This document shows positions 11,490 to 39,565 of a DNA stretch of 64,000 nt, piece after piece. The notes beneath the pieces are model-generated. The model ran no database searches. It was given only the letters and a program-made list of their open reading frames with translations, and was not told where the DNA came from. The DNA is from Acidimicrobiales bacterium (GTDB lineage Bacteria > Actinomycetota > Acidimicrobiia > Acidimicrobiales > CATQHL01). Position 1 is the first letter of the stretch. Each line of letters begins with the position of its first letter. Location of the stretch: the NCBI GenBank assembly GCA_965204655.1, contig OZ241998.1, positions 44,427-108,426 of the forward strand, read 5' to 3'. A program made the translations under genes and the position numbers.

Positions 11490-11575
11490 CCCGACCCCCT
11501 GTACCTCCTGGTGGAATCCCTGAGGGGTTTTTCAGATTGGGGGGAATTCCTTCACCGCTAGGCTGGAAGCCAAGC

Positions 11576-12807: not shown

Positions 12808-12934
12808 GAATGATGATTACCGAACGCCGTTTTGTCGTTGGCGCACCCCTCGCTATCGCAGTGGCCAAGGAGGCCATAATGGCCGAAGAGGCCGACGCGG
12901 CCAGGCCTCGGCGGAGGCAATAGAGAGGCGCCCG

Positions 12935-13765: not shown

Positions 13766-13826
13766 AGTCCCCTCGTCTGAGGCGGCTTCGGATCTTTCCC
13801 GAACTCCGCCGCCGGGTTGACACGCC

Positions 13827-22472: not shown

Positions 22473-26148
<3,676 letters not shown>

Positions 26149-26181
26149 GCCGCCGAGTTGTCCGGTTAGCGTAGACAGAGA

Positions 26182-26267
26182 GCCCGGGTGGCGGAATCGG
26201 TAGACGCTGAGGGCTTAAACCCCTCTGCCCCGTCAGGGGCGTATGGGTTCAAATCCCATCCCGGGCA
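26182..26267 (+). tRNA. tRNA-Leu (anticodon TAA)
   Basis: 86-nt class II tRNA: acceptor GCCCGGG/CCCGGGC, anticodon stem GAGGG/CCCTC with loop CTTAAAC, long variable arm TGCCCCGTCAGGGGCG, T-loop GGTTCAAATCC. Confidence 0.95.
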
Positions 26268-26316
26268 CCGAGATCGGGGATTCCCCTCGGTCTAGATCCT
26301 GGGGGGCTCCTTCGGT

Positions 26317-27276
26317 ATGACTTGGACGAACTTGAGGAATGCCCGATTGTTGAGGACGTCAGTGGTGCTGGCGGCGCTGGCGGGAATGCTTTCTTGTTCC
26401 TCCTGCGCCGACCCCTCCGATGAAACCCCCGCCGGGGAATCTCTTCCCCCGATGTTCGCTGACGCAGACTCTGGGGAAGGAGTTTTCTCATCAAGCGTCG
26501 ATCTAGCGGAAGCAGCCGCCGAGATCGCCGACCCCAACGCCGAGCCCAAAACGGCGCTGGGGCGCCTGCGGGCCCGCTACTTCCCGAAGTGGTCTTCTGA
26601 TCTGGACTGGGCGTTCCCACCCGATGTGTGCGAGAGCCCTTGGGAACTAGACGCCATCGCCGTAGGGGTGGCCTATGCCGACTCACGGGTACTGGGCGAC
26701 GTCCACAAGGCGGCCGCCCTGGCGGTCATGCGCTACGAACTATTTACCTCCCGCGCCATGTTCGAGCCGAGTGTGCTTTCGCAAATCTGCCTCTCAACGG
26801 TCTCCCTGCCCCCCGCTCGTACGACAAACCTGGCGGTTCTGGCGTCCTATATAGACAGCGGCGCCCGCCGAACTGAAATCCCAAGTCACCCCTCTTCAGT
26901 CGAGATAATCGCCACCGCCCCGGCAGCGGTCTTGGCTGCCGCCTGCGTGAAGCCCGGTTACGCCACCGTCCTCTCCGCAGATTCTGTAGTGGTGAGTGAG
27001 CCTCAGGCGGCTGTTCGTCTGCAGACCTACCTGCTGACGCTGGCTTCCGGTCAGGAGGACGAGGTGGCAGACGTTACCTTGCGCGTCGCCCGCCTGTTCC
27101 ATCGTCCGGCGGATGGCTGCGAAGAACTCGTAGAATGGTTGGGCGAATGGAGGCTTCGGGTGGAAGCGTGGATTGCCGAAGGTCGGTTGTGGAACGCCGC
27201 CGATGCGGTGATCACCCAAGAAGAACTCTGCAGCGGAGAACATAAGGCTGAGGATTGCCCGCGCAATTGGATGTGA
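26317..27276 (+). CDS. hypothetical lipoprotein / secreted protein
   Basis: N-terminal RLLRTSVVLAALAGMLSCSSC signal with a lipobox-like Cys. I recognise no family. Its stop overlaps the start of the next gene (TGATG). Confidence 0.55.
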   Translation: MTWTNLRNARLLRTSVVLAALAGMLSCSSCADPSDETPAGESLPPMFADADSGEGVFSSSVDLAEAAAEIADPNAEPKTALGRLRARYFPKWSSDLDWAFPPDVCESPWELDAIAVGVAYADSRVLGDVHKAAALAVMRYELFTSRAMFEPSVLSQICLSTVSLPPARTTNLAVLASYIDSGARRTEIPSHPSSVEIIATAPAAVLAAACVKPGYATVLSADSVVVSEPQAAVRLQTYLLTLASGQEDEVADVTLRVARLFHRPADGCEELVEWLGEWRLRVEAWIAEGRLWNAADAVITQEELCSGEHKAEDCPRNWM

Positions 27277-29555
27277 TGAGAATCAGGCTCAAAGACAATC
27301 CAACTAAACCACCTAGCAGGTTGCGCAGACGCAGTTGCCTGACAACGGCTATCTGCCTGTTGTTGATCACGCTGGTGGCCGCTCCGTTCTCAACCGAAAC
27401 CCTGCCCGGCCCGCTCAAGGACTTGGCAGCGCCTTCCCCGGTGCGGGCTCAAGATCCGGCGCCGGACGACACTGACGATGACGACACTGACGAACCGGCC
27501 TATACCACGGGTACTCCCGCTTCTTGCCCGAGTTCACCCATCGGGTGGGTGACAAGGAGCGAAAACTGCGAATTGAACATTCCCGTTCCTTGTCCTACGG
27601 GCTATCCGAACCTCTCTTTGTCTTTTCCTGCGTACTGCTACACGGAGGCTTCAGGTGAGGCTTCCAAACCTCCGGAGTGTTCCAGCCCAGGGGTGAGCAA
27701 TGCGGTGGTCATTTCGGTCAACGCCAGGACTTGTCGAATACATGTGTTGCGTACCTGCCCGGCCGGGGTCTTGCTCAGAGAGGGTTGGACGGATGGCACG
27801 GACTGGGATGAAGACAGGGACGGCGACGTCGATACCGCGTACGACGCCAATGACGACGACCTAGTTGACGACGAACATCACTACTTGAGGTGCAAGGCGA
27901 TTCAACGCCGTTCATGGACCTGCCCGGACGGCTATTTGACAAGTAACCAATTCAATTCGTGTTACCGCCCAAGCAGCGGAGAACTAGCGGAAGGTACGAC
28001 GCATCCGGCTTGTGACACCATCTCCGGCGCTCCCGCCTTCACGGTGCTGGAATGCGGAAGTTACGCAGGTGGCGACTACGACAATTCCAGAACGTGTCCC
28101 AGCGTTTCGAGCAGTTTCACGGCTGCGACAGGCGGGGCTTCAGCCCTCTACTGGTGTACCTTTGATTCCGCAAAATTGAACGTGGATTGCAACAGGACAA
28201 CCGTACCGAGCGGAGCCGACTGCGCCGTCAATACGGCGTACTGTTTGATGCGGGCGAGCCGGACAGGAGGTTGCGACGCAATCCTAAGAAACTTGACTTG
28301 CGCTCGCCTTCAGGCAGCGTACGTAGACGCAACCAACAAGGAAACGGCCGGGCAGAACGCCAGCCGCAGCGGATGTTCTCCTTGTTTAGTGCTGCCCTTT
28401 GCGAGCGTGTCGGGGAGTTGTCCCGATGAGATCACCGGTCAACCTACGAACAGTTTGGCTAATCGGGCTTATATTGCCAGCGTCAAAAGCAACGGAGGGC
28501 ATCTAAGAAGGGGTTCTTCTAGTTGCCAAAACCCTCCGCCTGGCCGCTTAGAGATGAGATCGCTTCACCAAACGAGGCTGCCGGTAGTGAACATAGACTT
28601 AATACTCACCTTTAGGGATATTCCGGAATTTTCTTACAGTTATAGTCCTAGGTACGACAATCCAATAAACGTTTACGGCAGGAATACGATATATGAGAAT
28701 AGATACATCAATATCCTAACGGATGATGAAACGATTAGGCTTGCCAGAATTCCGACAGGTACGCAGACGTCCTGGTCTAGTGTAGGGGAGTGTGCCGTTG
28801 ATTTTGCCCCCGTGTTCTTCATTAAAGTGGAAGAACTCTGGCCGGGTAATAGCGCAGATCATAGAACGAGAATAATCAATCTATTTGGGTCGGATGCATT
28901 GGACTGGTGGAACGATCTGACGACGGAAGAAAAAACTAGGTTGAATACAGCGTATGGCCAGAATCTCTACTCGGCGGAACACAATTGCCATTTGGAGCCG
29001 CCGATCTGGTGTAAGTGGAAGCCGGAGAAGGCGGGCTATTACAGTGTGACTGGTTTGACTATTGCACGAGCTACAGAAAAGGAATTTGCTTTGAGAAATC
29101 CTAGTACTGGCGAGCGCATACCGACTTCAGGTGAATCATTCGACCTCTGGGAAGCAGTATTCCCGATAACACGAAAGCAATCCACGATTGCGAATCAGCT
29201 AAGAGATTATTTTGACGGTGCCAAGATTCAAATTCCGAGTTCAATCTGGCACTCTAGTGGAAGCAGCCAGACTTCTGACCATGAAGGTAATCAAATTACA
29301 GTTTACTATGATTATGCTAGTGCTATAACAAAGATAATAGATTCCGGCGGCAACACAATCACGCTAGGAGACAACGGTAGTATAAACGACGAGGTAACGG
29401 CCGCAATTCTAATGGGGAAAATAGATCCGGAAGCTCTAAATTCTTTCGTAATAGGAGGAAGTGGCAGCCGAGACTACGGGATTTATACCGAGACTGAACC
29501 TATCGGTGTGCAGGTTAACGAAGTACGAGTTCTTACTCGCAAACCTTCAGGTTAA
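27276..29555 (+). CDS. large secreted cysteine-rich protein of unknown function
   Basis: ATG at 27276 shares its A with the upstream TGA. It has a signal/TM segment (CLTTAICLLLITLVAAPF) and an acidic stretch. I count 23 Cys in the next about 365 residues, with a recurrent [TSP]-C-P motif. The C-terminal about 330 aa are Cys-poor, Asn/Ile/Tyr-rich and low in GC. Confidence 0.65.
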   Translation: MRIRLKDNPTKPPSRLRRRSCLTTAICLLLITLVAAPFSTETLPGPLKDLAAPSPVRAQDPAPDDTDDDDTDEPAYTTGTPASCPSSPIGWVTRSENCELNIPVPCPTGYPNLSLSFPAYCYTEASGEASKPPECSSPGVSNAVVISVNARTCRIHVLRTCPAGVLLREGWTDGTDWDEDRDGDVDTAYDANDDDLVDDEHHYLRCKAIQRRSWTCPDGYLTSNQFNSCYRPSSGELAEGTTHPACDTISGAPAFTVLECGSYAGGDYDNSRTCPSVSSSFTAATGGASALYWCTFDSAKLNVDCNRTTVPSGADCAVNTAYCLMRASRTGGCDAILRNLTCARLQAAYVDATNKETAGQNASRSGCSPCLVLPFASVSGSCPDEITGQPTNSLANRAYIASVKSNGGHLRRGSSSCQNPPPGRLEMRSLHQTRLPVVNIDLILTFRDIPEFSYSYSPRYDNPINVYGRNTIYENRYINILTDDETIRLARIPTGTQTSWSSVGECAVDFAPVFFIKVEELWPGNSADHRTRIINLFGSDALDWWNDLTTEEKTRLNTAYGQNLYSAEHNCHLEPPIWCKWKPEKAGYYSVTGLTIARATEKEFALRNPSTGERIPTSGESFDLWEAVFPITRKQSTIANQLRDYFDGAKIQIPSSIWHSSGSSQTSDHEGNQITVYYDYASAITKIIDSGGNTITLGDNGSINDEVTAAILMGKIDPEALNSFVIGGSGSRDYGIYTETEPIGVQVNEVRVLTRKPSG

Positions 29556-29564
29556 GACTCAGCC

Positions 29565-30326
29565 TTAACCCACGCCAAACCTGACGGCGGCCTCCATGGA
29601 GTCGAATCTACGCAGTATATCGTTTTGCAGTACCTGGAGATCAGGGCTGTTCGGATGGCGGGGGCGGGGCAAGTCGACCGGTATGTCGTCGTAGATGACG
29701 CCTCCCGGACGCATCATGATAATCCGGTCAGCGAGTTCCACCGCTTCGTTGACGTCGTGTGTAACCAATATCGCTGTCTTGCGCGTCTGAATCCATATCC
29801 GCTGGAGGTAGTCGCGCAGGGAGCGTCCGGTTAAGGCGTCTAGGTGGCTGAAGGGCTCGTCCATCAGGAGTATGTCGGGGTTTACTAGGAAAGCGCGTGC
29901 TATGTTGACCCGCTGCTGCATGCCGGCGGATAGTTGCGAGGGATATAGGTCGGCTACCTCGCTGAGGCCCACCATAGAAAGATAGAACTCGGCTTCACGT
30001 CGCGACCTGTCCGACTTGCGGTCCAACACGAAAAGCATGTTGTTGACAATCGTTCGCCAGGGGAGCAGGCGGGGTTCCTGGAATACGTAACTGATGTGGG
30101 CAGGCACGCCGTCCTGAACAGAGCGTACGGTTCCCGACGTGGGCTGCTCGACGCCAGCGACGATGTTGAGCAGGGTCGTCTTGCCGCACCCCGACGGTCC
30201 TACTATGGCTACGAGCACGTTGCCGGTGATCGACATGTTCACACCGCCTACCGCCTGCACCTGGTTGGGCTGATTGGTAGTGGGGGGGAAGATCTTCGTG
30301 AGGTTTTCGATCAGGATGGTGGCCAT
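29565..30326 (-). CDS. ABC transporter ATP-binding protein (NitT/TauT family)
   Basis: Walker A GPSGCGKTT, signature LSAGMQQR, Walker B ILLMDEPFS, about 250 aa, SsuB/TauB-like. Confidence 0.9.
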   Translation of the reverse strand: MATILIENLTKIFPPTTNQPNQVQAVGGVNMSITGNVLVAIVGPSGCGKTTLLNIVAGVEQPTSGTVRSVQDGVPAHISYVFQEPRLLPWRTIVNNMLFVLDRKSDRSRREAEFYLSMVGLSEVADLYPSQLSAGMQQRVNIARAFLVNPDILLMDEPFSHLDALTGRSLRDYLQRIWIQTRKTAILVTHDVNEAVELADRIIMMRPGGVIYDDIPVDLPRPRHPNSPDLQVLQNDILRRFDSMEAAVRFGVG

Positions 30327-30332
30327 GAGGTC

Positions 30333-31301
30333 CTATCTTTCTGCGAATGTCTGGCTTTCTTGGGGGCGTTCAGGGTTGTTCTGAAGCGTGTTTGGCTGAG
30401 GGGCGTCGAAGGTGTCGTTTTCCTCAAACGTCAGCAGGGGGCGTTCATTCCAGCGGAAGGCGCGCCTTTCCAGAGGTCTCATCAAAAAGCGGTCGATGAG
30501 CATTATCAGCAGGATGAACAGAAGCACCCAGGACACGAAGCCCGGGAACTCCTGAAAGTCATGCAGGAACTTTGCTCGCGCTCCCACACCGGACGTGGAG
30601 CCGAACCATTCAACGATCAGCAAGCTGTTCCAGCCCGCCATAAGAGCCAACCTGACGCCGGTGATGGCGCTCGGCAGAGTTCCTCCTAGGATCAGGTGCT
30701 GCGTACGGCGTAGAAGCGGTACACGGTAGGAGTTGCACATCTCCACGAGCCCTTTGTCGATGTTGCGCACTCCGGCACTCACGCTCACAGCCACGAACGG
30801 GGTAACGGTCAGAACCACTGCAAAGATCGGGCCTTGCGAAGTCAGGTTGAACCAGAGCGTGGAAAGGAATGCCCATACCACCGAGGGTAGAGCCAGTAAT
30901 GCGAGGGTGGTGTCGTTGAGGAGACCGCGCGCAATTGAAGACGCTCCGATGAGTACCCCTAGCCCAAATCCCGCCGGAATGCCGATGAGCAGACCGATTC
31001 CGTAGCGCTGAAGGCTCGTCAGGAGCGGTCCCCAGAAGTTGCCTCTGAGAGCCCCAGAGTGGATTCCTCCGGTCAGTTCAGTGATAAAGAAGCTGACCAC
31101 TTCTTGGATGCCCGGGATTCGAGCGTTGGTGAAGGCGACGAGTTGCCATACCGCCAGAAGTATCCCGATGGACAGAAGGCGAATAAACCAAGGGCGCCGC
31201 AGCACACCGCCGGCCTTTGCCTGCCCCAGCCGAGGTTCGCTCCTGGGGAGTTCTTTAGGTATGGCGTCGGGAAGCGTGCGGGGGTTTCCGAAGTCAGTCA
31301 T
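30333..31301 (-). CDS. ABC transporter permease (NitT/TauT family)
   Basis: Six-TM BPD-type permease profile, adjacent to a paralogous permease and the ATPase. Confidence 0.8.
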   Translation of the reverse strand: MTDFGNPRTLPDAIPKELPRSEPRLGQAKAGGVLRRPWFIRLLSIGILLAVWQLVAFTNARIPGIQEVVSFFITELTGGIHSGALRGNFWGPLLTSLQRYGIGLLIGIPAGFGLGVLIGASSIARGLLNDTTLALLALPSVVWAFLSTLWFNLTSQGPIFAVVLTVTPFVAVSVSAGVRNIDKGLVEMCNSYRVPLLRRTQHLILGGTLPSAITGVRLALMAGWNSLLIVEWFGSTSGVGARAKFLHDFQEFPGFVSWVLLFILLIMLIDRFLMRPLERRAFRWNERPLLTFEENDTFDAPQPNTLQNNPERPQESQTFAER

Positions 31302-31309
31302 AGTCTTCC

Positions 31310-32143
31310 TCAGGATTCCCCTAAGCGCCAGTGAGAAGCCCAGCGCTCTATTTGCCGAAGTACTAGGTGCTCAAAGATGAGCATTACGGCTATGAACAGG
31401 ACGGTCCAGGCCAACATGGCCTGTATGTCGTAACGTTCAAAGCTCGATCGGATCTGAAATCCAATTCCTCTTGAGGCGGCAAAGACCTCGCTCAGAAGTT
31501 CCATGCGCCAAGCCACGGCAAACGCTAGCCGCGCTCCGCCGAGCAAAGAGAGGAGTGAAGAGGGCAGCAGGACATCCCGAACGATCTGTTGGCGTGTTCG
31601 GCCGAAGGCTTCGCTCATGATGATCAGCCTGCGATCAACGCCAGTGATTCCTTGAGCCACGTTGATCGTGATGTACGGGGTCGCAACCAACATCGTGGTC
31701 AGGATTGGGCCGGCAGGGGAGATCCCGAACAGGATCAGCGACAGCACGGCGAAACCAATCGTAGGAATCCCGACGATCAGCTGCAGCAGATTTTGCAGCA
31801 GGTTCCTCCACCATTCGTTGTAGGCAATGAGGAGTCCTAGGATGGCGCTCAGAGCGATGGCTAGCAGGAAGCCGCTCAGCAACCTAGAAAGGCTGCTCCA
31901 AAGGTTCGCTCCGAAGCCGCCGCCTGAGATTATCTCTCCTGCCCGGCGGATTACCAAGTGAGGGGCGGGCAGCCTCGGATCGTTGATGATTACGTTAGAG
32001 AACAGGTACCAGATGCCGATGAAGGCGCCCCAGCCGACGAGTACGCTGAGTCTCACACCCCAACGACGCCAGACCGCCTTGCGCGCCTCTTGAGCGGAAA
32101 GTTCAGCGATAGAACTGGGAGTCAGGGAGGCGACGTCTGTCAT
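31310..32143 (-). CDS. ABC transporter permease (NitT/TauT family)
   Basis: Paralog of the downstream permease, with an EAA-like loop (MSEAFGRTRQQIVRDVLLPS). Confidence 0.8.
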   Translation of the reverse strand: MTDVASLTPSSIAELSAQEARKAVWRRWGVRLSVLVGWGAFIGIWYLFSNVIINDPRLPAPHLVIRRAGEIISGGGFGANLWSSLSRLLSGFLLAIALSAILGLLIAYNEWWRNLLQNLLQLIVGIPTIGFAVLSLILFGISPAGPILTTMLVATPYITINVAQGITGVDRRLIIMSEAFGRTRQQIVRDVLLPSSLLSLLGGARLAFAVAWRMELLSEVFAASRGIGFQIRSSFERYDIQAMLAWTVLFIAVMLIFEHLVLRQIERWASHWRLGES

Positions 32144-32148
32144 TCTGT

Positions 32149-33318
32149 CTACTCTTCCTCTGTTCCCTTACCGGGTGTGGAAAGACGGTCAGTAAGTCGT
32201 CCTAGGTCTCCCCCTGTATCGCTCCCGGATCCCCCAGGTTTCAAGATGTTTTCTAAGGCGGCGATCTCGCCCGCGAAAGAAAGATCGAATTGGGGGTTGG
32301 TTGCGTCTGGATCGACTAGTGCGGATTCCAGCATTCGGGAGAATATGTCGGAATTGGTGGCTTGGTCGTCCATACCTACATAGATGGAGGGAACGATCCA
32401 GTCCCGTTCATTGACGTAATTGATCATCCATTCGATCTGTCCGTCACCTTCAATTGAGAAGAACGTCGGATAGTTGGTGATGATCCTTGCCTTGTTCAAC
32501 TTCCATTCCTTGAGGGCTTCCTCCCAGAGGGACAGCAGAAAGTCGATAGAACGTTGATTGTTCTCAAACCAGTTTCTGTCAACCACGAATACTTCGTCTA
32601 GTGGCAGCGCAGAGGCGGATTCAGCGACTTCCTCTGAATAGAGTTCTGCGGCGGAGCGTCCGTCGTAGACGGCTCTCAAATCGCCTGAACTGAGATGGGA
32701 GGCGCTGGAGTCGGGGAGGCAGATACAAGCGTCTACCTGTCCGCGAATCACCAAGTCGGCGACGATCGTGGAATTAACGAACTCAAGGGAGAAGTCCCTT
32801 CCATTCTCCTTGAGGTCTAGGCCGTAGAGTTCTCTTGCTAGCACTCCCCACAACCTCGTGGATTCAACGGAGTTGCTGACAGCGATTTTCCTGCCCACTA
32901 GGTCTTCCAGGGAGTTGACCTGAGAATGACGATGTACCCCCAGGAAACTGCGGTCGTAGGTTAGCTTGCCCAGGATCACGGCGTCGCGTTCCGACTGCCG
33001 TACGATGTCGGCGACATCCATGGCGTTCATGATCACTATGTCGGCGTGACCGCCGGCAAAGACCCCGAAGTGATTAGAGAGGGTGTTATCGGCGACGCGA
33101 ATGTTCCAGTTGCTTTCCCACTTCGAGAGTGTGCCGCTGTCTTTCAGCCAATTCCAGAGCGGGTTCGGGCGAATGGCCAAGTTGATGACTGCCGCCGCCT
33201 CTTGCGGGTTTGCGGGTGGAGGATCACCGGGAGAGGTGTCGGGTGAACTGTTCCCCGATGCTGCGCCTCCTCCACAGGACGTCAGAATGGCGGTCACCGT
33301 TAGGAGGGCTGTCAGCAT
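32149..33318 (-). CDS. ABC substrate-binding lipoprotein (NMT1/SsuA-like)
   Basis: Start taken at the internal Met giving MLTALLTVTAILTSCGGG (lipobox). The body resembles SsuA/NMT1-type binding proteins. Confidence 0.75.
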   Translation of the reverse strand: MLTALLTVTAILTSCGGGAASGNSSPDTSPGDPPPANPQEAAAVINLAIRPNPLWNWLKDSGTLSKWESNWNIRVADNTLSNHFGVFAGGHADIVIMNAMDVADIVRQSERDAVILGKLTYDRSFLGVHRHSQVNSLEDLVGRKIAVSNSVESTRLWGVLARELYGLDLKENGRDFSLEFVNSTIVADLVIRGQVDACICLPDSSASHLSSGDLRAVYDGRSAAELYSEEVAESASALPLDEVFVVDRNWFENNQRSIDFLLSLWEEALKEWKLNKARIITNYPTFFSIEGDGQIEWMINYVNERDWIVPSIYVGMDDQATNSDIFSRMLESALVDPDATNPQFDLSFAGEIAALENILKPGGSGSDTGGDLGRLTDRLSTPGKGTEEE

Positions 33319-33337
33319 GCACGACGGCTTGCGCCCT

Positions 33338-34954
33338 CTACCCACTGGTTGACCCTTCCGCTCCCTGCTTGTCGATGTTCTCAAGGACTTCGGAAACATC
33401 GGTCCACCCTTTGCCTTCGATGGGGCGTAGACAACCCCAAGCGTTGAGAGCGCAAGCAGGATCGGCTTTGAGGGCTCGCATGTTGTCTGATCCGAACCTG
33501 TCTTCTGAATTGAATCCGATGTGGAGACCGTGAAGGGCGGTGAAACTGGTTTCTCCCAGAGCGGCGACCAGGGACTCGCGTGTCAAGGAGATTCCTGCTT
33601 TTGAAATTGCGCCGAAGATTACGTCGAGCGCGTCGCACATCGACATCATCAGTACCCAGGCGTCGGTGTGGTGCCGATAGGAAAAGGGCTCGACGTCCAA
33701 GCTGTTGCGAAGGGTATGGCATCCCTGGTCCAAGCCTGTCAGCGGGTCTCCCGGTGTTCTCCAAGAACTGGCTTGGACGAGATTCACGGATTGGCGGTCG
33801 GGTGCCCTGCCCAAGATCAGACTGGCCGTCTGGATGTCGTTTACTATCCAGGTAGGAAACCAATCGATCAAGTCGGCCTTGATCATGAGGCGACGCGTAT
33901 GCGCCCAGTTGCTGTCGGACACTACGGCAGTGATTCCCCCCGCCTGCATCTGAGCGGCCATGTTCGCGTAGAAATCGTCCATAGCGGTTAGAGTTTCCAC
34001 GGCCTCTTCGCTGAGGGGTGTATCTCCGGTACCGGCTTCATAGTGCCTTTTTTGCTCTTCCAGGAGCAGGATTCGAATATCTTCGAACGCCTCAGGTATT
34101 GGAATATTGGCTTCGATTCGAAGCCCCAGACTTTCAGCAAAGGCGGCAATTTCCGCGACCTTTGCATTGGTGTTATCTGTTTCGGGGTCAGTGGGTTTGG
34201 TGTACAGGAGAGCCAATCGATCGCTCGGCCCTATTTCGCCAACGTCAGAGGCTGTTATGAGGCTGCCCTTGAATTGATACTGGCTGGAGCCGCGGTCGTC
34301 GAAGAGAAGTCCGCCTGACATGGCGAAATACTCTTCTGAGAGAGAAGAGTTGATGGACAGCGTCGGGATTCCGGCGGCTAAGGTCAGACAATTGAAGAGT
34401 ACTTCGCTCATTCGCAGTGACAGAATCATTAAGGGTTGCTGCCCGGGCAACTCCGTGCACATTCTTATGATTTCCTCTTCGGCGTTGGCAACGTCCCAAA
34501 TGTTGATCAGGGGCTCAAAACAGTTGCCGTTTACTCCGCCATGCCTGTTTATCTCGTTGATGTAGGACTGCATTATCAGGTTGAGGGGTTCTAGATCCAA
34601 GACCTCCAAGCCAATCTGGGCTAGATTTTGGAGGTCGGGCTCTATCCATGCGATTTTGAACCTTCGCTGAGAGCCCTCCTCCCCGGAGAGGGCGTCCGAG
34701 CAGTTGCCGCCGCCCATCGGGCTTCCGCCTGCTGCCCTGATTCCTTCTCCTGGTCTGGTGTCGGCCAGGGTTCCGACTTGAGCCGATGCGTCCTCGGCTG
34801 TTGGAGTTCCGCTTTCTCCAGGGGTCCCTCCGCCTCCTCCGCAGGCGGACGCTAGAAGCGAGATTGCGAGGAGACCGGCAACTAGCAGCCGGACGTTTTG
34901 GGGCGATGGTCTGCGGTTTTGGAGTTTGGGGTCTGAGCGTAAGTTGATATTCAT
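33338..34954 (-). CDS. type-1 periplasmic-binding-fold lipoprotein (LivK-like)
   Basis: Start taken at the ATG at 34954, which overlaps the upstream stop (TGATG). It has an LLASACGGGGG lipobox and YINEINRHGGVNGNCFEP, which resembles the INxxGG[IV]xG motif of LivK-family binding proteins. Confidence 0.6.
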   Translation of the reverse strand: MNINLRSDPKLQNRRPSPQNVRLLVAGLLAISLLASACGGGGGTPGESGTPTAEDASAQVGTLADTRPGEGIRAAGGSPMGGGNCSDALSGEEGSQRRFKIAWIEPDLQNLAQIGLEVLDLEPLNLIMQSYINEINRHGGVNGNCFEPLINIWDVANAEEEIIRMCTELPGQQPLMILSLRMSEVLFNCLTLAAGIPTLSINSSLSEEYFAMSGGLLFDDRGSSQYQFKGSLITASDVGEIGPSDRLALLYTKPTDPETDNTNAKVAEIAAFAESLGLRIEANIPIPEAFEDIRILLLEEQKRHYEAGTGDTPLSEEAVETLTAMDDFYANMAAQMQAGGITAVVSDSNWAHTRRLMIKADLIDWFPTWIVNDIQTASLILGRAPDRQSVNLVQASSWRTPGDPLTGLDQGCHTLRNSLDVEPFSYRHHTDAWVLMMSMCDALDVIFGAISKAGISLTRESLVAALGETSFTALHGLHIGFNSEDRFGSDNMRALKADPACALNAWGCLRPIEGKGWTDVSEVLENIDKQGAEGSTSG

Positions 34955-37764
34955 CAGTAACCAGGGGGATAGTTGGGGTTTTCGGAGGCCGAAGCCATAA
35001 GGGATGCGGCTATGTCTGGCGACATTGCTTGCGCAGCCAGCATCGTGAAGGCGATCGGCTGCACCACTGCCCGAGATGTGGCGTCTATGTGGATTCTCCA
35101 TGGCCAGCGCGCGGCAGCCGAGGACGTTGCGCCTACCAGCGCTAGGTTTGACCCGGGGGAGACTGCTATTTGTCCTGCACGCTGAATCAGAATGTCGTGA
35201 CCCGGTCCCACCACCAAAACGTCGAGTTCGGCATCTCCACCGGTTGGTTCGGATTTGCTTGCTCTGACGAGAAGTTCCTCAAGATGGGGAGAGTCGAAAC
35301 TCGTGGACATTACGCGTTCCCAGCCCGGGCCTTGGGGCGTATCCACTCCTAGGGCTATGACTCTCACGCTTTCGGCCATGGGTGATGAGCCGAGTGCTTC
35401 CACTATGGCGGAGAGCAGGCTGGTGGACTGGGGTTCCGGTCCGGAAATCGCCAAACAACCGATTTCTTCGAAGTTCAGCAGCAAAGGCCCTTCTACTGTG
35501 TCTCCCACTGGGACGAGAGCCGGGCACAGCGATAAGCCTTGCCCGAAGGAGTCGAGGTGTTCTATCGTGACCCCTTCGGCCAATTCCAGTACGTAGCCTC
35601 CGGAGGCTGCCACCCAGTAGTCGGGTGCTTCGGTGGGCTGATCAAGCAGAACCTCAAAGCCGTAGGTACCCACGCGTACGGCAACCACCTTGGGTTTTCT
35701 TCTGAGTTGCGCCACTGTGACAGACCGCAAGTGCCGCATGGCTGCTTCTATGAGACGCAGGGAGTCCATCCTTGCGCTTTGCCTGAGCGATTCCTCTAGA
35801 GGGTCGTGCGCTTGCTCTCCGCTGTCCCCCCGGCGGCGGCGTAGTCGTGAAAGCTGCCAAAGCAACATTGCGTCGCCGATGGCGGTGCCGGCGAGGCTGC
35901 GCCGCGAAGCGATGATACTTTGCTCGGAAATTCTCGTTGAAGGATCGGCGCCGGTCATTGAAGGCATGAACTTCGGCAGAGGGGGCGCTTCTTGTTCTTC
36001 GAATTCCTCCGGAGCCAGGGGAGGAGGTTCGTAGGCGGAGGGAGCGGAAGGTTCGTAGCCGCCGGCGGCTGGGGTTTCGTATGTGTACGGGGTTTCTGGA
36101 GTTGGCGGCGGCGGTTCGTAGGCGGCGGGAGCCCCCGCAGATGCCGGTGGCGGCTCATATGCGGAGAGAGGGGGAGTGTCGGGGGGAGGCGGCGGGGGTT
36201 CTTGGGGGGCGGGCGGTGCTTCGTATGTGTGCGGGGCTTCTGGAGGTGCTGGTGGTTGTTCGTAGGCGGGCGAAGCGGGCGTGTCCAGCGCTTGCGTCGG
36301 TTCTTCTTGGACCGGAGGTGGAGGGGGCGCCACCGGGGGAGGGGCATGAGTGGTGGTCGGAGCGTCGGGCCCAGCACCGGCGGAGGGTTGAGGTTGAGGG
36401 TCGTAGTAGGTCGCCTCCTCCGGCTCTCGGCCCTCGGGCACCTCCGGCAACGATTGGTCAGCAGATGGCTGTTGGCTAGGTTCTGCCGTGAATGTCTGAG
36501 CGGCCTCTGCGGCCGCCGGGGCAGCAACGGGAGGGGGGGGAGAAACGGGGGGGTGTGTATCGGACGTCGGCGCCTCCGGAATCCCTGGCGGCTGCCCCGC
36601 TCCCAAACCGGGCAACCCTTCGATGTCTGGGAGGGCGGCCGTTTCAAGTTCAGCGCCATGCGCCAGCCCTCTCCAGAAGGGGACTACTTCTGCAGGATCG
36701 GGTTCTCTGCCCCAAGCGGCGTAGAGGAAACGTTCAGCTAATGTCCAGAGGAACACCGGATCAGGCTTGCCCCAGGGCATCGGATCCCCTGGAAGCATAA
36801 GGGCGCTGCCTATGGGTACAAGGTCGTCAGCCTCCAGAGACGCTATGGTTGGATACGCGGCGTTAAGAGTACGTAGTTCTTTCCATCGGGCAGGTGAGTT
36901 CAAGAATTGCGCAGAGATGCTGCGCAGAGTGTCGTCGGGGCGGGAGATGTAGTAGGCGCGCACCGGAATGATCTCCGGCGCTTCGGCGGGGAGGACTCTC
37001 GTTGAATCGCGAGGGATAACCTCTTCAGTGACTGGGGTGTCCGTAATGACTGGGGTGTCCATATACCCTTCAGCCGAGCGCTGCCACTCCTGACCTTCCG
37101 TTCCGTAGTGGCTGAACTCTTCTTGGCTGGCTACCCCTTCGCCCCCCCCTGTTTCAGGGAAGTAGCCGGGTGTCTCAGCGTGTAAGGGGGAGCCTCCACT
37201 GGAGCCTTGGGGAATTGTTTGATAGTCGGGAACGTCTTCGGTGTCTGAGGAGGTGACTATCACCTGGGTCTGGAAGTCGCTGACTGGCTCCTCAAAAATA
37301 GGTGGACTCTGTCGGTACCAGGGCAGTTCGGATTCGCCCTCCCCTGAGGGTGGGTGTGTCTCTATTGTGTCTAGTCCCTGACCAGGGCCGCTAGAACGAC
37401 GTCTTCCAGCCTTTGAGGTTTTAGGGCGGCGGGCGCCCCGCCTTGATCGGCTCACGAGCCCGACGACGAGGGCGATGAGGGCTCCGAGCCATGCGAGTGC
37501 CAGTACCCCTGAAACGATGTTGACAATGTTTTCTGAAGGGAGCGTTCCATCGGAAATAAGTTCTTGTGTGTTGGGCCATTCCGACGGCAGAGCGAATTGC
37601 AGAGGGCCGAGAATAAAGTTGGCCGCAAGTGGCAGAGCGATGAGTATGAGCAGCGCAATTGCGTTTCTAAGCAAGGCAACTCTTGCTGACTTCTCAACGT
37701 TTTCCTCAGATACTGGATTGTGGCTCTCAGTTTCTTGCTCGTTCCCCTGGGGGATTTGTGCCAT
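34954..37764 (-). CDS. 936-aa membrane protein: 2 TM, LysM-like segment, Pro/Tyr-rich repeats, degenerate FtsK/SpoIIIE-like C-terminal domain
   Basis: TM segments at aa 33-55 and 83-104, followed by RSRRGARRPKTSKAGRRR. LysM-like YYISRPDDTLRSISAQF...LVPIGSALMLP (nt 36790-36963). xAYEPPP repeats (nt 35965-36582). C-terminus: PVGDTVEGPLLLNFEEIGCLAISGPEPQSTSLLSAIVEAL...VRVIALGVD aligns by eye with the FtsK block LGKDI.G.PVV.DL...HLLVAGTTGSGKSV..N..I.SL...V.FI.IDPK but lacks GKS/T. Confidence 0.6.
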   Translation of the reverse strand: MAQIPQGNEQETESHNPVSEENVEKSARVALLRNAIALLILIALPLAANFILGPLQFALPSEWPNTQELISDGTLPSENIVNIVSGVLALAWLGALIALVVGLVSRSRRGARRPKTSKAGRRRSSGPGQGLDTIETHPPSGEGESELPWYRQSPPIFEEPVSDFQTQVIVTSSDTEDVPDYQTIPQGSSGGSPLHAETPGYFPETGGGEGVASQEEFSHYGTEGQEWQRSAEGYMDTPVITDTPVTEEVIPRDSTRVLPAEAPEIIPVRAYYISRPDDTLRSISAQFLNSPARWKELRTLNAAYPTIASLEADDLVPIGSALMLPGDPMPWGKPDPVFLWTLAERFLYAAWGREPDPAEVVPFWRGLAHGAELETAALPDIEGLPGLGAGQPPGIPEAPTSDTHPPVSPPPPVAAPAAAEAAQTFTAEPSQQPSADQSLPEVPEGREPEEATYYDPQPQPSAGAGPDAPTTTHAPPPVAPPPPPVQEEPTQALDTPASPAYEQPPAPPEAPHTYEAPPAPQEPPPPPPDTPPLSAYEPPPASAGAPAAYEPPPPTPETPYTYETPAAGGYEPSAPSAYEPPPLAPEEFEEQEAPPLPKFMPSMTGADPSTRISEQSIIASRRSLAGTAIGDAMLLWQLSRLRRRRGDSGEQAHDPLEESLRQSARMDSLRLIEAAMRHLRSVTVAQLRRKPKVVAVRVGTYGFEVLLDQPTEAPDYWVAASGGYVLELAEGVTIEHLDSFGQGLSLCPALVPVGDTVEGPLLLNFEEIGCLAISGPEPQSTSLLSAIVEALGSSPMAESVRVIALGVDTPQGPGWERVMSTSFDSPHLEELLVRASKSEPTGGDAELDVLVVGPGHDILIQRAGQIAVSPGSNLALVGATSSAAARWPWRIHIDATSRAVVQPIAFTMLAAQAMSPDIAASLMASASENPNYPPGY
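36076..36245 (-). repeat. 144-nt-period internal duplication in the Pro-rich coding region
   Basis: ttcgtatgtgtacggggtttctggag (36076-36101) recurs as ttcgtatgtgtgcggggcttctggag (36220-36245), 48 codons apart. ggttcgtaggcgg-type units recur between them. Confidence 0.8.
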
Positions 37765-37915: not shown

Positions 37916-38470
37916 TTAAGAAGTTGACGCGATGATGGGGCATTCGCCAAGATGTTTGATGCTCTGTTCCTGGCTGCCGTCCGGCCTGATAAGAACGGCT
38001 TCAGCTGCCCCCCTGGCAAAAATAGGTTGTCGTTCTCTGCCTAGGCTCAGCATCGACCTCAACCTGTAGCCAGAGACCACGAGAACCTCCACCCGGGACC
38101 CTACGCAGTCCACGGAGGCGACGAGAATATCCTCCCCGTAGATGAGGGGGACTTTCCCCACGCGGTCTTCCGCAGCCTGCTTGGCGTCAGCTAGAGAACC
38201 TCCGCTTGCGATTGTCACGGAGGCGACTCGAGCAGCTTCGCTGGCCGCATGTGCTGCGTCCTGGCGGGCGGCGATGATACGAGGGGCGTCGTAGGCGATG
38301 CTGCTGAGCAGTATCAGAGCGACTGCGATGATGGCGATGAAAGGGGCGTACACGCCTCTTTCATCTTGGCGTGCTTCCTCACGGGTATGTCCTTTTTTCG
38401 AAGGAAGCGGAGATCCGATTGCTGCCAGGAGGCGCCTAGATCGACGGGCGGGCGTCTTGCGAGTTGACAT
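37916..38470 (-). CDS. TadG/TadE-like pseudopilin (Tad N-terminal domain)
   Basis: ERGVYAPFIAIIAVALILLSSIAYDAPRIIAARQDAAHAASEAARVAS matches the pattern of the Flp pilus-assembly TadE/G-like N-terminal domain. Confidence 0.65.
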   Translation of the reverse strand: MSTRKTPARRSRRLLAAIGSPLPSKKGHTREEARQDERGVYAPFIAIIAVALILLSSIAYDAPRIIAARQDAAHAASEAARVASVTIASGGSLADAKQAAEDRVGKVPLIYGEDILVASVDCVGSRVEVLVVSGYRLRSMLSLGRERQPIFARGAAEAVLIRPDGSQEQSIKHLGECPIIASTS

Positions 38471-38973
38471 CAGGTCGGCCTGGAGCGGTAGGGATCGAGG
38501 GTGGCGACGCCCACCAACAACCGCTCAGCGCTGAAGTAGGGTACCCCGAAACCACCTAAGAGTTTTGGGGGAATTCGGCATCTCAGGAATACGTAGACTG
38601 TTCCTGCGGGCGGGACGGAGTTGCTACTTCCTGCTGCGACTTCGTTGTCGTCGACGTCGGTGAAGACTATGTTGGCGTCTCCGACTAAGTCGTTGTTGCA
38701 GAAGACGCTGTTGAAGACGTTTGCCTCTTCCATCGATTCCAGGCTGGCTCGTACAACGGCAAGAGCGCCATTGTCGCCGTCGATGTTCTGACAGCAGATA
38801 GCTGCGGTTCGGGCGGCTCGATTGGCCGCGGCTTGCAGGGCTTGCTCGATGCGGACAGAGTCTGTGAGCGCAGAGAGGAGGACGATCATGAGCATCAAGG
38901 CAGGGAACAAGATCGCCACTCCTATGGCGGCTCCTGAACCGGCCTCGCAGCGTTCCCGAAACGACTTGCGCAT
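38470..38973 (-). CDS. TadE-like pseudopilin
   Basis: N-terminus EAGSGAAIGVAILFPALMLMIVLLSAL resembles the TadE signature (G-x-AxVEFALVxPxLL). Its stop overlaps the next start (TGATG). Confidence 0.6.
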   Translation of the reverse strand: MRKSFRERCEAGSGAAIGVAILFPALMLMIVLLSALTDSVRIEQALQAAANRAARTAAICCQNIDGDNGALAVVRASLESMEEANVFNSVFCNNDLVGDANIVFTDVDDNEVAAGSSNSVPPAGTVYVFLRCRIPPKLLGGFGVPYFSAERLLVGVATLDPYRSRPT

Positions 38974-38974
38974 T

Positions 38975-39451
38975 TCAGCAAGTCCAGGGGTCGGATTCAG
39001 TGAGTTCTGCTGCAGTCAGGTTGTCTAGCGGGCCGCAGGACAGAGCCGTAAGTTCCACTTCTCCCATTATGGGAGAGATGGTGCTAGCGAAGATCAGAGC
39101 CTGCACGACGCCTCTTCCCTCTTCCACGATTATTGCAGGGGGGCGGGTTTCTATCACGGTGCTGGATGAAGCAACCAGAGATATACGTGCTGCCAGCCTC
39201 CCTTCGGTTTCTCGCTCGCTCGCAAAGGCGCTCTGTGCAGCGATTACAGCGGCGTCGGCAGCCGACTGAACGGCGGTGCGGCCCATTGCCACGATCACGA
39301 GGTGAACTCCCATGAAGATCGTGAAGATGACCCCAAGGAACAGAATGGCAACGGGCATCGCCTCGCCGCGGGCGTCGTTGCCTGCTGCGCCGAGTGCTTT
39401 GCCCAGTTTGCTTAAGCAGGAAGAGCGTCCATGCGCCGGCGGACTTTTCAT
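38975..39451 (-). CDS. TadE-like pseudopilin
   Basis: ARGEAMPVAILFLGVIFTIFMGVHLVIVAMGRTAVQSAADAA, a TadE-like hydrophobic N-terminus. Confidence 0.55.
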   Translation of the reverse strand: MKSPPAHGRSSCLSKLGKALGAAGNDARGEAMPVAILFLGVIFTIFMGVHLVIVAMGRTAVQSAADAAVIAAQSAFASERETEGRLAARISLVASSSTVIETRPPAIIVEEGRGVVQALIFASTISPIMGEVELTALSCGPLDNLTAAELTESDPWTC

Positions 39452-39565
39452 TGCTCCCCTGGAGACCTCAACACAGCGCCTCTCCCTTTCTCGTTGGGAT
39501 GGAGCGGTTAAGTGATCCGCCGTGAAGGTGAATTAAGTCCTCAAACTTCGGCTTGAGTGTCTAGG

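What the first reader, a model, noticed from the sequence alone, without database searches (positions are those of the whole stretch)
27276..29555. 759-aa secreted protein with a Cys-dense N-terminal half and no family I can recognise
After a signal/TM segment and an Asp-rich stretch (DDTDDDDTDE), I count 23 Cys in about 365 residues. A recurring [TSP]-C-P context appears six times: SCPSS, PCPTG, TCPAG, TCPDG, TCPSV and SCPDE. A second acidic patch follows (DWDEDRDGDVDTAYDANDDDLVDDE). Only 3 more Cys occur in the remaining about 330 residues. Such Cys density is unusual for an exported protein of a Gram-positive-type bacterium. The gene is translationally coupled to a lipoprotein gene of equally unknown function.
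Basis: partly seen in the sequence, partly recalled or inferred. Interest (0 to 1): 0.7.

Follow-up and report, generated by a model that had tools for sequence, protein, structure and literature searches.

The report
Orphan disulfide-rich surface protein with lipoprotein partner
This is a real gene for an exported protein held together by about 13 disulfide bonds; it belongs to an undescribed family found only in Acidimicrobiales bacteria (many from marine sponges), is always made together with a small lipoprotein, usually sits beside a nutrient importer, and has an unknown function.

Summary
The ORF at 27276-29555 encodes 759 aa with one N-terminal hydrophobic segment. It has 23 Cys in residues 84-417 and 3 more later, six [TSP]-C-P motifs (0.4 expected) and two acidic patches. 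It is not a chimera: two independent assemblies share the architecture and the low-GC 3' half. Pfam, NCBIfam, PADLOC, PDB sequence and profile searches, and Foldseek against PDB and BFVD all found nothing. An exhaustive HMM search found a sharply bounded family of about 190 cluster representatives. Every named genome hit is an Acidimicrobiales MAG, many from sponges. Nineteen Cys are invariant, and 82 of 88 members have an even Cys count, which points to all-disulfide folding. The upstream gene is a true lipoprotein with an NTF2-like fold. Its stop overlaps the Cys-rich start (RTGA) in 20 of 26 loci. The pair flanks a NitT/TauT-type ABC importer in about 23 of 31 loci, in two orientations. My best reading is inferred, not shown: a lipoprotein-tethered, non-enzymatic binding scaffold on the cell surface, probably accessory to that importer or facing the host. 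It is a new family of moderate interest.

The parts
26317..27276 (+). Partner gene: a 319-aa lipoprotein. It has a signal peptide, an invariant lipobox Cys27, a disordered tether (about residues 28-68), a helical region and a C-terminal NTF2-like alpha+beta cone. Six further Cys are invariant.
   Evidence: Family alignment A4 shows invariant C27, C105, C158, C210, C268, C305 and C314. The AF2 model has pLDDT 78.7, with the core above 90. The top Foldseek hits are the Tim44 C-terminal domain, the ARC6/PARC6 intermembrane-space domain and VirB8-like proteins, with prob 0.9-0.97, E 0.01-0.03 and TMt 0.4-0.62. Pfam and NCBIfam give no hit.
27273..27278 (+). Stop/start overlap junction (GTGATG). 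The lipoprotein TGA stop lies at 27274-27276. The Cys-rich gene starts at GTG 27273 or ATG 27276.
   Evidence: Sequence read. The RTGA overlap is conserved in 20 of 26 loci.
27276..29555 (+). Gene for the 759-aa Cys-rich exported protein.
   Evidence: A 100%-identical protein (P0001) and 23 homologues were found, and 190 family representatives.
27336..27392 (+). The only hydrophobic segment (residues 21-39), preceded by RRR. It is either a signal peptide or a signal anchor.
   Evidence: The maximum of the 19-residue Kyte-Doolittle window is 2.15, at residue 21, and no other segment exceeds 1.6.
27447..27452 (+). A58-Q59, conserved in at least 90% of the family (AxA|Q). It is a possible signal-peptidase site, unusually far (about 20 residues) from the hydrophobic core.
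   Evidence: Listed among the nearly invariant columns of alignment A3. Cleavage itself is inferred.
27465..27494 (+). First acidic stretch, DDTDDDDTDE (residues 64-73). It is specific to this clade.
   Evidence: A poly-Asp stretch is also present in L004 and L005.
27525..28526 (+). Cys-dense region, residues 84-417, with 23 Cys. All 23 sit in invariant or nearly invariant Cys columns of the family.
   Evidence: The AF2 model has pLDDT 70-90 over residues 205-400.
27801..27875 (+). Clade-specific acidic insertion (residues 176-200). It contains a DxDxDGxxD loop of the calcium-binding type at residues 178-186 (nt 27807-27833).
   Evidence: The insertion is seen only in the window protein and P0002 in alignment A1. 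The motif is conserved in the window, L004 and L005.
28527..29552 (+). C-terminal half (residues 418-759). It has a conserved beta-rich/helical core (residues 420-450, 506-600, 735-750) with C506, C571 and C579. The core is interrupted by fast-evolving, low-GC, low-confidence inserts (residues 452-505 and 603-731).
   Evidence: GC/GC3 profile. Identity profile.
29565..30326 (-). ABC importer ATPase (NitT/TauT-like). It is convergent with the Cys-rich gene, 9 bp from its stop codon.
   Evidence: Pfam ABC_tran at 1.2e-31. The best NCBIfam hits are sulfonate, SaoA, nitrate and taurine ATPases, all below their cut-offs. It is 78-94% identical across loci.
30333..32143 (-). Two ABC permease genes (30333-31301 and 31310-32143).
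   Evidence: Pfam BPD_transp_1. SsuC-, SaoP- and TauC-like hits in NCBIfam, below their cut-offs.
32149..33399 (-). Substrate-binding lipoprotein of the importer (416 aa).
   Evidence: Pfam Phosphonate-bd at 2.5e-7. A weak SsuA-family hit. Conserved in the block.
33338..35101 (-). Second, SBP-like lipoprotein (587 aa). It is conserved in the block.
   Evidence: Only a weak Peripla_BP_6 hit. Conserved position.
34954..37764 (-). 936-aa proline-rich membrane protein with a conserved C-terminal domain. It is the last conserved member of the block and has no family assignment.
   Evidence: The PDB sequence search gave nothing.

Best explanation
**Shown.** The ORF is a genuine, conserved gene. It is a member of a hitherto undescribed protein family restricted to Acidimicrobiales.

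**Strongly inferred.** The protein is exported by an N-terminal signal peptide or signal anchor. It is folded oxidatively outside the cytoplasm into a scaffold locked by 13 disulfides. All 26 mature Cys are paired.

**Shown (genetics), inferred (contact).** It is produced in fixed translational coupling with the lipoprotein encoded immediately upstream. The NTF2-like cup of that lipoprotein most likely binds or escorts it. This would hold it on the outer face of the cytoplasmic membrane.

**Inferred.** Conservation is dominated by Cys, Trp, Gly and Pro, with no invariant catalytic-type residue. I therefore read the protein as a non-enzymatic binding or scaffold protein, not an enzyme.

**Inferred from gene neighbourhood only.** The pair keeps its place at the ATPase end of a NitT/TauT-type ABC importer block in most genomes. 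I think the most likely role is an accessory surface module of that importer. It could capture or present a ligand, or stabilise the transporter. An analogy is the way VirB8-like Mam/Omam proteins support Mce importers in mycobacteria.

**Inferred.** In this lineage a clade-specific acidic insertion adds a DxDxDGxxD loop of the Ca2+-binding type.
For: **Real gene and family.**
- 24 homologues were found.
- The exhaustive HMM search gave 190 representatives at E<=1e-3, of which 156 are at E<=1e-30. That is a sharp family boundary.
- 19 Cys are invariant and 7 nearly invariant among 88 members.

**All-disulfide fold.**
- 82 of 88 members have an even Cys count (26-38) in the mature part.
- Accessory Cys are gained and lost in pairs (402/411 and 653/683).
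- Actinobacteria have MdbA-driven oxidative folding of exported proteins (PMC9974433).

**Export.** There is a single hydrophobic segment at residues 21-39.

**Partner.**
- The lipobox Cys is invariant.
- The partner has an NTF2-like fold.
- The pair is present in 26 of the loci examined.
- The RTGA overlap occurs in 20 of those 26.

**Non-enzymatic.** The invariant non-Cys columns are only W214, W293, G332, W545, G587 and V747. The family's conserved His residues (306 and 748) are Asn in the window protein.

**Link to the importer.**
- The pair abuts the ATPase gene either convergently (window, L002, L004, L005, L009, L017, L026, L028) or co-directionally with gaps of about 100 bp (L007, L008, L010, L012, L014, L015, L020-22, L025, L027, L029, L032, L033, L035).
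- The outer flanks differ between lineages.
- More distant copies of the ABC core (L040, L041, L044) lack the pair and also lack the two other accessory genes. These four genes are therefore clade-specific additions around one transporter.
- The Mam/Omam precedent comes from bioRxiv 10.1101/2025.03.26.645568.
Against: - No experiment, expression data or structural match supports any function.
- The AF2 model of the Cys-rich protein is only moderate: pLDDT 57.5, with 357 residues below 50.
- In the window the pair and the importer are convergent, so they are separate transcripts.
- Extra or solitary copies occur without the importer or without the lipoprotein (L006, L030, L031, L011/L003, L013, L019, L023).
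- All hosts belong to one order, so shared synteny could be inheritance and not selection.
- ABC importers of monoderm bacteria are not known to need such a partner.
- Physical contact between the two proteins was not tested.
- The NTF2-like assignment rests on Foldseek E-values of 0.01-0.03, and none is <=0.001.
Confidence: 0.4

Rival explanations
1. It is a host-facing adhesin or symbiosis factor: a surface-displayed, disulfide-hardened protein that binds sponge matrix or host cells. On this reading it is functionally independent of the neighbouring ABC importer.
For: - All named genomes carrying the family are Acidimicrobiales MAGs. Many carry sponge-derived names: Ca. Poriferisodalis, Ca. 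Aldehydirespirator, and the APA_, IRC4_ and SB06xx bins. Both named families are described as sponge-associated in PMC11706023.
- It is the fastest-evolving gene of the neighbourhood: 27-33% identity, against about 80% for the ATPase. It also has lineage-specific inserts.
- Several genomes hold 2 copies (L011+L018, L023+L030), and some copies lie far from any copy of the importer.
- In the window a Tad-pilus-like adhesion locus lies just beyond the block.
Against: - There is no adhesin-type domain, no repeat architecture (hhalign probabilities <=3.5%) and no LPXTG or other wall anchor.
- Sponge restriction is inferred from MAG names only. Free-living relatives were not surveyed.
- This reading does not explain the persistent adjacency to the importer in two orientations.
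Confidence: 0.25
2. It is a structural or biogenesis component of the cell envelope, for example a wall-associated scaffold. The lipoprotein would act as its assembly chaperone. There would be no ligand-binding role.
For: - Its place in the genome is conserved: the window, L004 and L005 share the flanking genes (mnmA, ligA, tRNA-Leu).
- Both proteins are exported and disulfide-bonded.
- The NTF2/VirB8-like fold is typical of assembly factors.
Against: - The sequence diverges fast and the copy number varies, which is unusual for core envelope machinery.
- The family is confined to one order.
Confidence: 0.12
3. It is an extracellular enzyme that releases the substrate taken up by the adjacent ABC importer.
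For: It is adjacent to an importer of unknown substrate. Secreted enzymes are commonly encoded beside their cognate transporters (general knowledge).
Against: - No invariant Asp, Glu, His, Ser or Lys was found. The conserved His306 and His748 of the family are Asn in this protein.
- No enzyme family or fold was matched.
Confidence: 0.08
4. It is a secreted toxin or effector, and the lipoprotein is its immunity or escort protein (polymorphic-toxin logic). The variable, low-GC C-terminal half would be a swapped toxin module.
For: - Two genes are tightly coupled.
- The C-terminal half diverges and has deviant GC in this clade.
- The protein is Cys-rich and secreted.
Against: - The extreme C-terminus (TEPIGxxVxEVRV) and the core at residues 506-600 are conserved family-wide. 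The C-terminus is therefore not a swappable cassette.
- The putative immunity gene is upstream, not downstream.
- PADLOC and Pfam give no toxin hit.
- No secretion-system marker domain was found.
Confidence: 0.05
5. It is an artefact: an assembly chimera or a decaying pseudogene, with a foreign AT-rich piece fused in frame.
For: GC drops from about 0.57 to 0.43-0.48, and GC3 from 0.63 to 0.45, inside the ORF. This gene has the lowest GC3 of any large gene in the window.
Against: - The same full-length architecture and the same GC step occur in two independently assembled genomes: L004 (a 2.55-Mb contig) and L005 (a 2.78-Mb chromosome).
- A 100%-identical protein is recorded on two contigs.
- The C-terminal end and C506, C571 and C579 align with all family members.
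Confidence: 0.01

Closest known systems
Mam/Omam (Mce-associated membrane) proteins of mycobacteria: VirB8/NTF2-like accessory proteins of Mce ABC lipid importers
   Same: They are actinobacterial, extracytoplasmic proteins tethered to the membrane, with an alpha+beta cone fold. They are encoded beside an ABC importer and needed for its stability (bioRxiv 10.1101/2025.03.26.645568). The lipoprotein partner here has the same general fold class and the same kind of genomic position.
   Different: The tether here is a lipobox Cys, not a transmembrane helix. The transporter is a classical SBP-dependent NitT/TauT-type importer, not Mce. No sequence similarity was detected. Mam proteins have no 700-residue Cys-rich partner.
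ARC6/PARC6 intermembrane-space domain and Tim44 C-terminal domain (NTF2-like protein or peptide-binding cups)
   Same: These are the best structural matches to the lipoprotein partner: prob 0.90-0.97 and TMt 0.41-0.62. They act by docking a partner protein segment or a membrane (from my own knowledge of those structures).
   Different: They are eukaryotic organelle proteins. E-values are only 0.01-0.03. There is no sequence relationship, and only the C-terminal half of the lipoprotein is covered.
Eukaryote-type Cys-rich extracellular modules (EGF-like, furin-like or TNFR-type repeats; thrombospondin type-3 Ca2+ loops)
   Same: All are extracellular with a high density of disulfides. 'C-P-x-G-[YV]' contexts recur after a beta-hairpin (C106, C161, C216). 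A DxDxDGxxD loop at residues 178-186 resembles the Ca2+ sites of TSP type-3 repeats.
   Different: Pfam gives no hit even at E<=1. There is no detectable internal repeat and no fold match. The Cys spacing is unique, and the family is purely bacterial.
MdbA/VKOR-dependent disulfide-bonded exported proteins of Actinobacteria (for example pilins)
   Same: They are exported actinobacterial proteins whose stability depends on post-translocational disulfide formation (PMC9974433). The even Cys count fits this.
   Different: Known substrates carry one to a few disulfides, whereas this protein is predicted to carry 13 (up to 19 in relatives). There is no sortase signal.

Membership tests
Any Pfam-A / NCBIfam / PADLOC family (Cys-rich protein) | Significant match to a curated profile HMM | tested here: not met
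   No families were found at E<=1 in Pfam and NCBIfam, and none in PADLOC. Nine long family members also gave 0 Pfam hits.
Any protein with a solved structure | Sequence or profile similarity to a PDB chain, or fold similarity | tested here: not met
   phmmer and the 88-sequence profile against the PDB gave 0 hits at E<=10. Foldseek against the PDB had a best E of 0.02 with TM<=0.13. Foldseek against BFVD had a best E of 0.05. Caveat: the model has pLDDT 57.5, and AlphaFold DB was not available.
EGF-like / furin-like / TNFR Cys-rich repeat proteins | Tandem repeats of a 6-8-Cys module recognisable by a profile | tested here: not met
   No Pfam hit. hhalign of five consecutive Cys-rich segments against each other gave probabilities <=3.5%.
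DxDxDG calcium-binding loops (thrombospondin type-3-like) | DxDxDGxxD motif | tested here: met
   DEDRDGDVD at residues 178-186. It is conserved as DADNDG[VE]VD in L005 and L004. It occurs in only one other position in one other member of 88, so it is a trait of this clade and not of the family.
DxDxDG calcium-binding loops (thrombospondin type-3-like) | Match to the TSP_3 repeat profile; actual Ca2+ binding | tested here: not met
   No Pfam TSP_3 hit. Ca2+ binding is not testable here.
Alpha-2-macroglobulin (top Foldseek hit) | Multiple MG domains, a length of about 1500 aa, and a CxEQ thioester | tested here: not met
   E=0.02, TMq 0.07, rmsd 24 A. None of the 28 Cys is followed by xEQ (sequence).
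Sortase-anchored surface proteins | C-terminal LPXTG, a hydrophobic stretch and a basic tail | tested here: not met
   The protein ends ...NEVRVLTRKPSG. The only hydrophobic segment is at residues 21-39.
Polymorphic toxin with immunity protein | Conserved N-terminus, interchangeable C-terminal toxin domain, immunity gene immediately downstream | tested here: not met
   The C-terminal 25 residues and residues 506-600 are conserved in all members. The partner gene is upstream. The downstream neighbour is a convergent ABC ATPase.
Bacterial lipoproteins (partner, 26317-27276) | Signal peptide ending in a lipobox with an invariant Cys and a small residue at -1 | tested here: met
   C27 is invariant in 27 sequences. 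It is preceded by S, A or G and by a hydrophobic stretch. Lipidation itself is not testable here.
NTF2-like superfamily (partner) | Alpha+beta cone: helices packed into a curved antiparallel sheet | tested here: inconclusive
   The secondary-structure order is H167-181, E194-265 and H268-287, with pLDDT above 90. Foldseek prob is 0.90-0.97 for Tim44-C, ARC6 and PARC6, with VirB8-like hits also listed. However, E is 0.01-0.03 and TMt 0.4-0.62.
Mam/Omam Mce-associated proteins (partner) | N-terminal transmembrane helix, encoded in or after an mce operon, sequence family membership | tested here: not met
   It has a lipobox instead of a transmembrane anchor. The neighbour is a BPD_transp_1/SBP importer, not Mce. 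There is no profile hit.
Tat-exported proteins | S/T-R-R-x-F-L-K motif before the hydrophobic core | tested here: inconclusive
   The leader has RLRRRSCL, and the family consensus is RRRxxRxL. This is not a canonical twin-arginine motif. A 13-disulfide protein is more compatible with Sec export (inference).

The most novel reading that the evidence does not exclude
The lipoprotein and the 13-disulfide protein together would form a previously unknown kind of extracytoplasmic receptor. It would be specific to sponge-associated Acidimicrobiales. It would capture a host-derived molecule, or dock onto host matrix, and feed the adjacent NitT/TauT-type ABC importer. That would make it a monoderm counterpart of outer 'capture' devices, and a lineage-specific symbiosis determinant. 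It would have been assembled by adding four accessory genes (big936, lipo587, lipo319, CysRich) around an ordinary transporter core.
Probability: 0.18. Interest if true: 0.7.

Novelty: categorically new. Interest (0 to 1): 0.5.

Why it matters
If the reading is right, this is a founding member of a protein family and fold that no database describes. It would be the most rapidly evolving, outermost component of a gene module conserved across sponge-associated Acidimicrobiales, a major but uncultured group of sponge symbionts. It offers a concrete, testable candidate for how these bacteria touch their host or acquire host-derived compounds. It is also an extreme test case for oxidative protein folding in Actinobacteria, with 13-19 disulfides in one bacterial protein. 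If the reading is wrong, it remains one more conserved hypothetical pair, useful mainly as a lineage marker.

Tried and rejected
**Searches that found nothing**
- Pfam, NCBIfam and PADLOC scans of both proteins and of nine long relatives gave no hits.
- PDB sequence and profile searches gave no hits.
- Foldseek of the AF2 model against PDB and BFVD gave only non-significant Ig-like or MG-domain noise.
- Rfam on the window and three co-directional loci found no riboswitch that could hint at the transporter substrate. It found only two tRNAs.
- PDB searches with SBP416, lipo587 and the C-terminus of big936 were not informative about the substrate.
- The promoter and terminator scan of 26000-29800 was at or below the shuffled expectation.
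- tblastn found no paralogue of the Cys-rich protein within the window.
- Literature searches for the genera, or for Cys-rich proteins in sponge Acidimicrobiia, found nothing about this family.
- A third homologue search with the 88-sequence profile added no new or annotated relatives.

**Ideas rejected**
- Internal-repeat hypothesis for the recurring C...CPxG contexts. hhalign between five sub-alignments gave probabilities <=3.5%.
- Assembly-chimera idea. The orthologues share the GC step.
- Horizontal island at the tRNA-Leu gene. The tRNA occurs only in the window clade, whereas the pair and the block are conserved without it elsewhere.

**Calls that failed**
- The first attempt to scan genomes with the full alignment failed for lack of a conserved stretch. 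It was repeated with a subset.

Full report
**1. The observation**

One search lists an ORF at 27255..29555 (+). From the ATG at 27276 it encodes 759 aa.
- There are 28 Cys in all: two in the hydrophobic leader (C21, C27), exactly 23 between residues 84 and 417, and three later (C506, C571, C579).
- The six [TSP]-C-P contexts and both acidic stretches are present as quoted.
- Shuffling the mature sequence gives 1.7 CP dipeptides on average against 6 observed (p=0.004). It gives 0.41 [TSP]CP against 6 observed, a count never reached in 20,000 shuffles.
- The upstream ORF (26317..27276) ends with TGA at 27274-27276. That stop overlaps ATG 27276 by one base and GTG 27273 by four.
- The only hydrophobic segment is residues 21-39.

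GC drops from about 0.57 to 0.43-0.48, and GC3 from 0.63 to 0.45, in the last kilobase. This gives the gene the lowest GC3 of any large gene in the window.

**2. Not an artefact**

A 100%-identical protein and 23 homologues exist in public data. Two close orthologues lie on independently assembled genomes: L004, a 2.55-Mb contig at 62% identity, and L005, a 2.78-Mb chromosome at 72% identity. Both have the same length, the same flanking genes and the same GC step in the 3' half. More distant homologues from 67-69% GC genomes do not show the step.

The low-GC segment coincides with the least conserved parts of the protein: 44-62% identity against 75-90% in the core. I read it as a fast-evolving region in a lineage with smaller, lower-GC genomes. 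I do not read it as a chimera or a recent insertion.

**3. No known family**

The following searches all came back empty.
- Pfam and NCBIfam at E<=1, and PADLOC.
- phmmer against all PDB sequences, and an 88-sequence profile against the PDB.
- Pfam scans of nine unusually long relatives.

The AF2 model built on 24 sequences has mean pLDDT 57.5. It is confident over residues 205-400, 420-450, 506-600 and 735-750. Foldseek found nothing significant in the PDB (best E 0.02, TM<=0.13; generic Ig or MG sandwiches) or in BFVD. AlphaFold DB could not be searched.

An exhaustive HMM scan of 1.84 billion representatives returned 190 proteins at E<=1e-3. Of these, 156 are at E<=1e-30 and nearly all are full-length. 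The family is therefore sharply bounded and isolated.

**4. What the family looks like**

In an 88-member alignment, 19 Cys are invariant and 7 more are at least 94% conserved. The invariant non-Cys residues are only W214, W293, G332, W545, G587 and V747.

Eighty-two of 88 members have an even number of Cys (26-38) after the leader. Accessory Cys appear and disappear in pairs, at columns 402/411 and 653/683. The two C-terminal family Cys (columns at residues 719 and 727, each 91% conserved) are both absent from the window protein. This is the signature of a protein in which every Cys is disulfide-bonded.

The window protein has the family minimum, 26 Cys, which gives 13 disulfides. So the 'Cys-poor C-terminal half' is a lineage peculiarity. 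Actinobacteria fold exported proteins oxidatively with MdbA (PMC9974433). Cys-rich exported proteins are therefore less anomalous here than in Firmicutes, but this number is still extreme.

The recurring C-x7-9-C-P-x-G contexts do not reflect detectable repeats (hhalign <=3.5%). A58-Q59 is at least 90% conserved and may mark a processing site. Whether the leader is cleaved or acts as an anchor is open.

The second acidic patch is an insertion found only in the window clade. It contains a DxDxDGxxD loop (residues 178-186) conserved in the window, L004 and L005. This is the classic calcium-binding loop motif (my knowledge; binding not tested).

**5. Taxonomy**

A scan of one genome per GTDB species found 27 loci. 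All are in Acidimicrobiales MAGs. They include Ca. Poriferisodalis, Ca. Aldehydirespirator, and bins named after sponge samples (APA_, IRC4_, SB06xx). Both named families are described as containing sponge-symbiotic lineages (PMC11706023). That paper does not mention this protein. The sponge association is inferred from names. Free-living relatives were not surveyed systematically.

**6. The partner**

The upstream gene has its own orphan family. That family has an invariant lipobox Cys and six further invariant Cys. Its AF2 model is good: pLDDT 78.7, with the core above 90. After a disordered tether and a helical region, it forms an alpha+beta cone. The best matches to that cone are the Tim44 C-terminal domain, the ARC6/PARC6 intermembrane-space domains and VirB8-like proteins, which share the NTF2-like fold. 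The scores are prob 0.90-0.97, but E is only 0.01-0.03.

A homologue lies directly upstream of the Cys-rich gene in 26 of the loci examined. In 20 of those 26 an ATG or GTG in the Cys-rich frame overlaps the lipoprotein stop as RTGA. Five of the remaining six still show RTGA at the junction. The pair is therefore a conserved, translationally coupled module.

**7. The neighbourhood**

Downstream in the window, and convergent with the Cys-rich gene, lies an ABC importer. It comprises an ATPase, two BPD_transp_1 permeases, a Phosphonate-bd/SsuA-like binding lipoprotein, a second SBP-like lipoprotein and a 936-aa proline-rich protein. All NCBIfam hits (sulfonate, SaoA, nitrate, taurine) are far below their cut-offs. 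The system is NitT/TauT-like with an unknown substrate.

The pair abuts the ATPase end of this block in about 23 of 31 distinct loci.
- It is convergent in about 8 loci, including the window.
- It is co-directional in about 15 loci, with intergenic gaps of about 100 bp: block -> lipoprotein -> Cys-rich protein.
- The outer flanks differ between lineages.

More distant homologues of the ABC core, in other metagenomes with enough flanking DNA (L040, L041, L044), lack the pair, the second SBP and the proline-rich protein. These four genes therefore look like clade-specific additions around a transporter core.

There are exceptions: solitary or extra copies without the importer or without the lipoprotein (L006, L030, L031, L011, L013, L019, L023). 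Divergence rises from the ATPase (about 80% identity) through the permeases (about 60%), the SBP and lipoprotein (about 45%) and lipo587 (about 37%) to the Cys-rich protein (about 29%). This fits increasing exposure to the outside. No riboswitch was found.

**8. Interpretation**

*Shown.* A real, conserved, exported-type gene. An orphan family. A conserved coupled lipoprotein partner. Conserved adjacency to one ABC importer.

*Strongly inferred.* An all-disulfide extracytoplasmic fold.

*Inferred.* The NTF2-like lipoprotein binds and tethers the Cys-rich protein. The protein is a binding scaffold and not an enzyme, because it has no invariant catalytic-type residues and the family's conserved His306 and His748 are Asn here. 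The module assists the importer. The closest functional analogy is the VirB8-like Mam/Omam proteins that stabilise mycobacterial Mce importers (bioRxiv 10.1101/2025.03.26.645568). That is an analogy only; membership is not met.

I give this reading about 0.4. The main rival, at about 0.25, is a host-facing adhesin or symbiosis factor unrelated to transport. It is favoured by the fast evolution, the multiple copies, the apparent host restriction and a Tad-pilus-like locus nearby. Envelope-structural, enzyme and toxin/immunity readings are less likely. The artefact reading is excluded.

**9. Verdict**

The finding is correct and the gene is new at the family level. No sequence, profile or fold relative is known for the Cys-rich protein, and only a generic fold class is known for its partner. 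The function is unknown, and the proposed mechanism rests on anatomy and synteny. Interest is moderate (0.5). It is a good candidate for structural and symbiosis work, but not yet a surprising mechanism.

Noticed in passing
window 26182-26269 (+): A tRNA-Leu(UAA) gene sits between ligA (which ends at 26148) and the lipoprotein gene. The same tRNA is present at the orthologous position in L004 and L005. It is absent from the homologous loci of other lineages.
   Followed up: partly
window 37916-46523 (-): A Tad/Flp-pilus-like cluster lies directly upstream (in transcription order) of the 936-aa proline-rich protein. It comprises a SAF-domain protein (45738-46523), a 488-aa ORF, a T2SSE ATPase (42492-44051), two T2SSF membrane proteins (40678-42440) and four small ORFs (37916-40096) with no Pfam hit.
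   Followed up: no
window 34954-37764 (-): This 936-aa protein has an N-terminal hydrophobic region and a long Pro-rich, low-complexity middle. Its C-terminal roughly 340 residues are 57-92% identical across loci. It has no Pfam, NCBIfam, PADLOC or PDB match. It is always at the far end of the ABC block.
   Followed up: partly
window 33338-35101 (-) and 32149-33399 (-): The importer has two different lipoprotein-type binding proteins in tandem, and their ORFs overlap by about 60 nt. The 587-aa one has only a faint Peripla_BP_6 signal, and a weak, probably spurious PsaF-like stretch in the PDB search. Both give weak hits to the NCBIfam 'lipo-invert tail' domain.
   Followed up: no
window 28500-29555 (+); L004 and L005 orthologues: The 3' half of the Cys-rich gene has GC3 of 0.28-0.50 in three related genomes whose other genes have GC3 around 0.7. 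Distant homologues in 67-69% GC genomes show no such drop. I suggest fast evolution under AT-biased mutation in a reduced-genome lineage (2.4-2.8 Mb against 3.3-4.6 Mb). This is not proven.
   Followed up: partly
L003/L011 (JAPPDX010000107.1), locus coordinates 8001-15842: A solitary family member without the lipoprotein lies convergent to a different ABC importer: Opp/Dpp-type, with SBP_bac_5 and two ATPases. This could be coincidence, or a second case of association with an importer.
   Followed up: no
window 47323-48759 (-) and L033 12125-13063 (-): OpuAC-type (glycine betaine/choline) binding-protein genes occur near the module in two unrelated arrangements.
   Followed up: no
window 23335-26148 (+): The longest ORF for the NAD-dependent DNA ligase (ligA) is 937 aa. 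It is 867 aa as called in L001, and tblastn identity begins at residue 58 and runs to 612 in the best segment. The C-terminal part appears to carry an extra insertion before the BRCT region.
   Followed up: no
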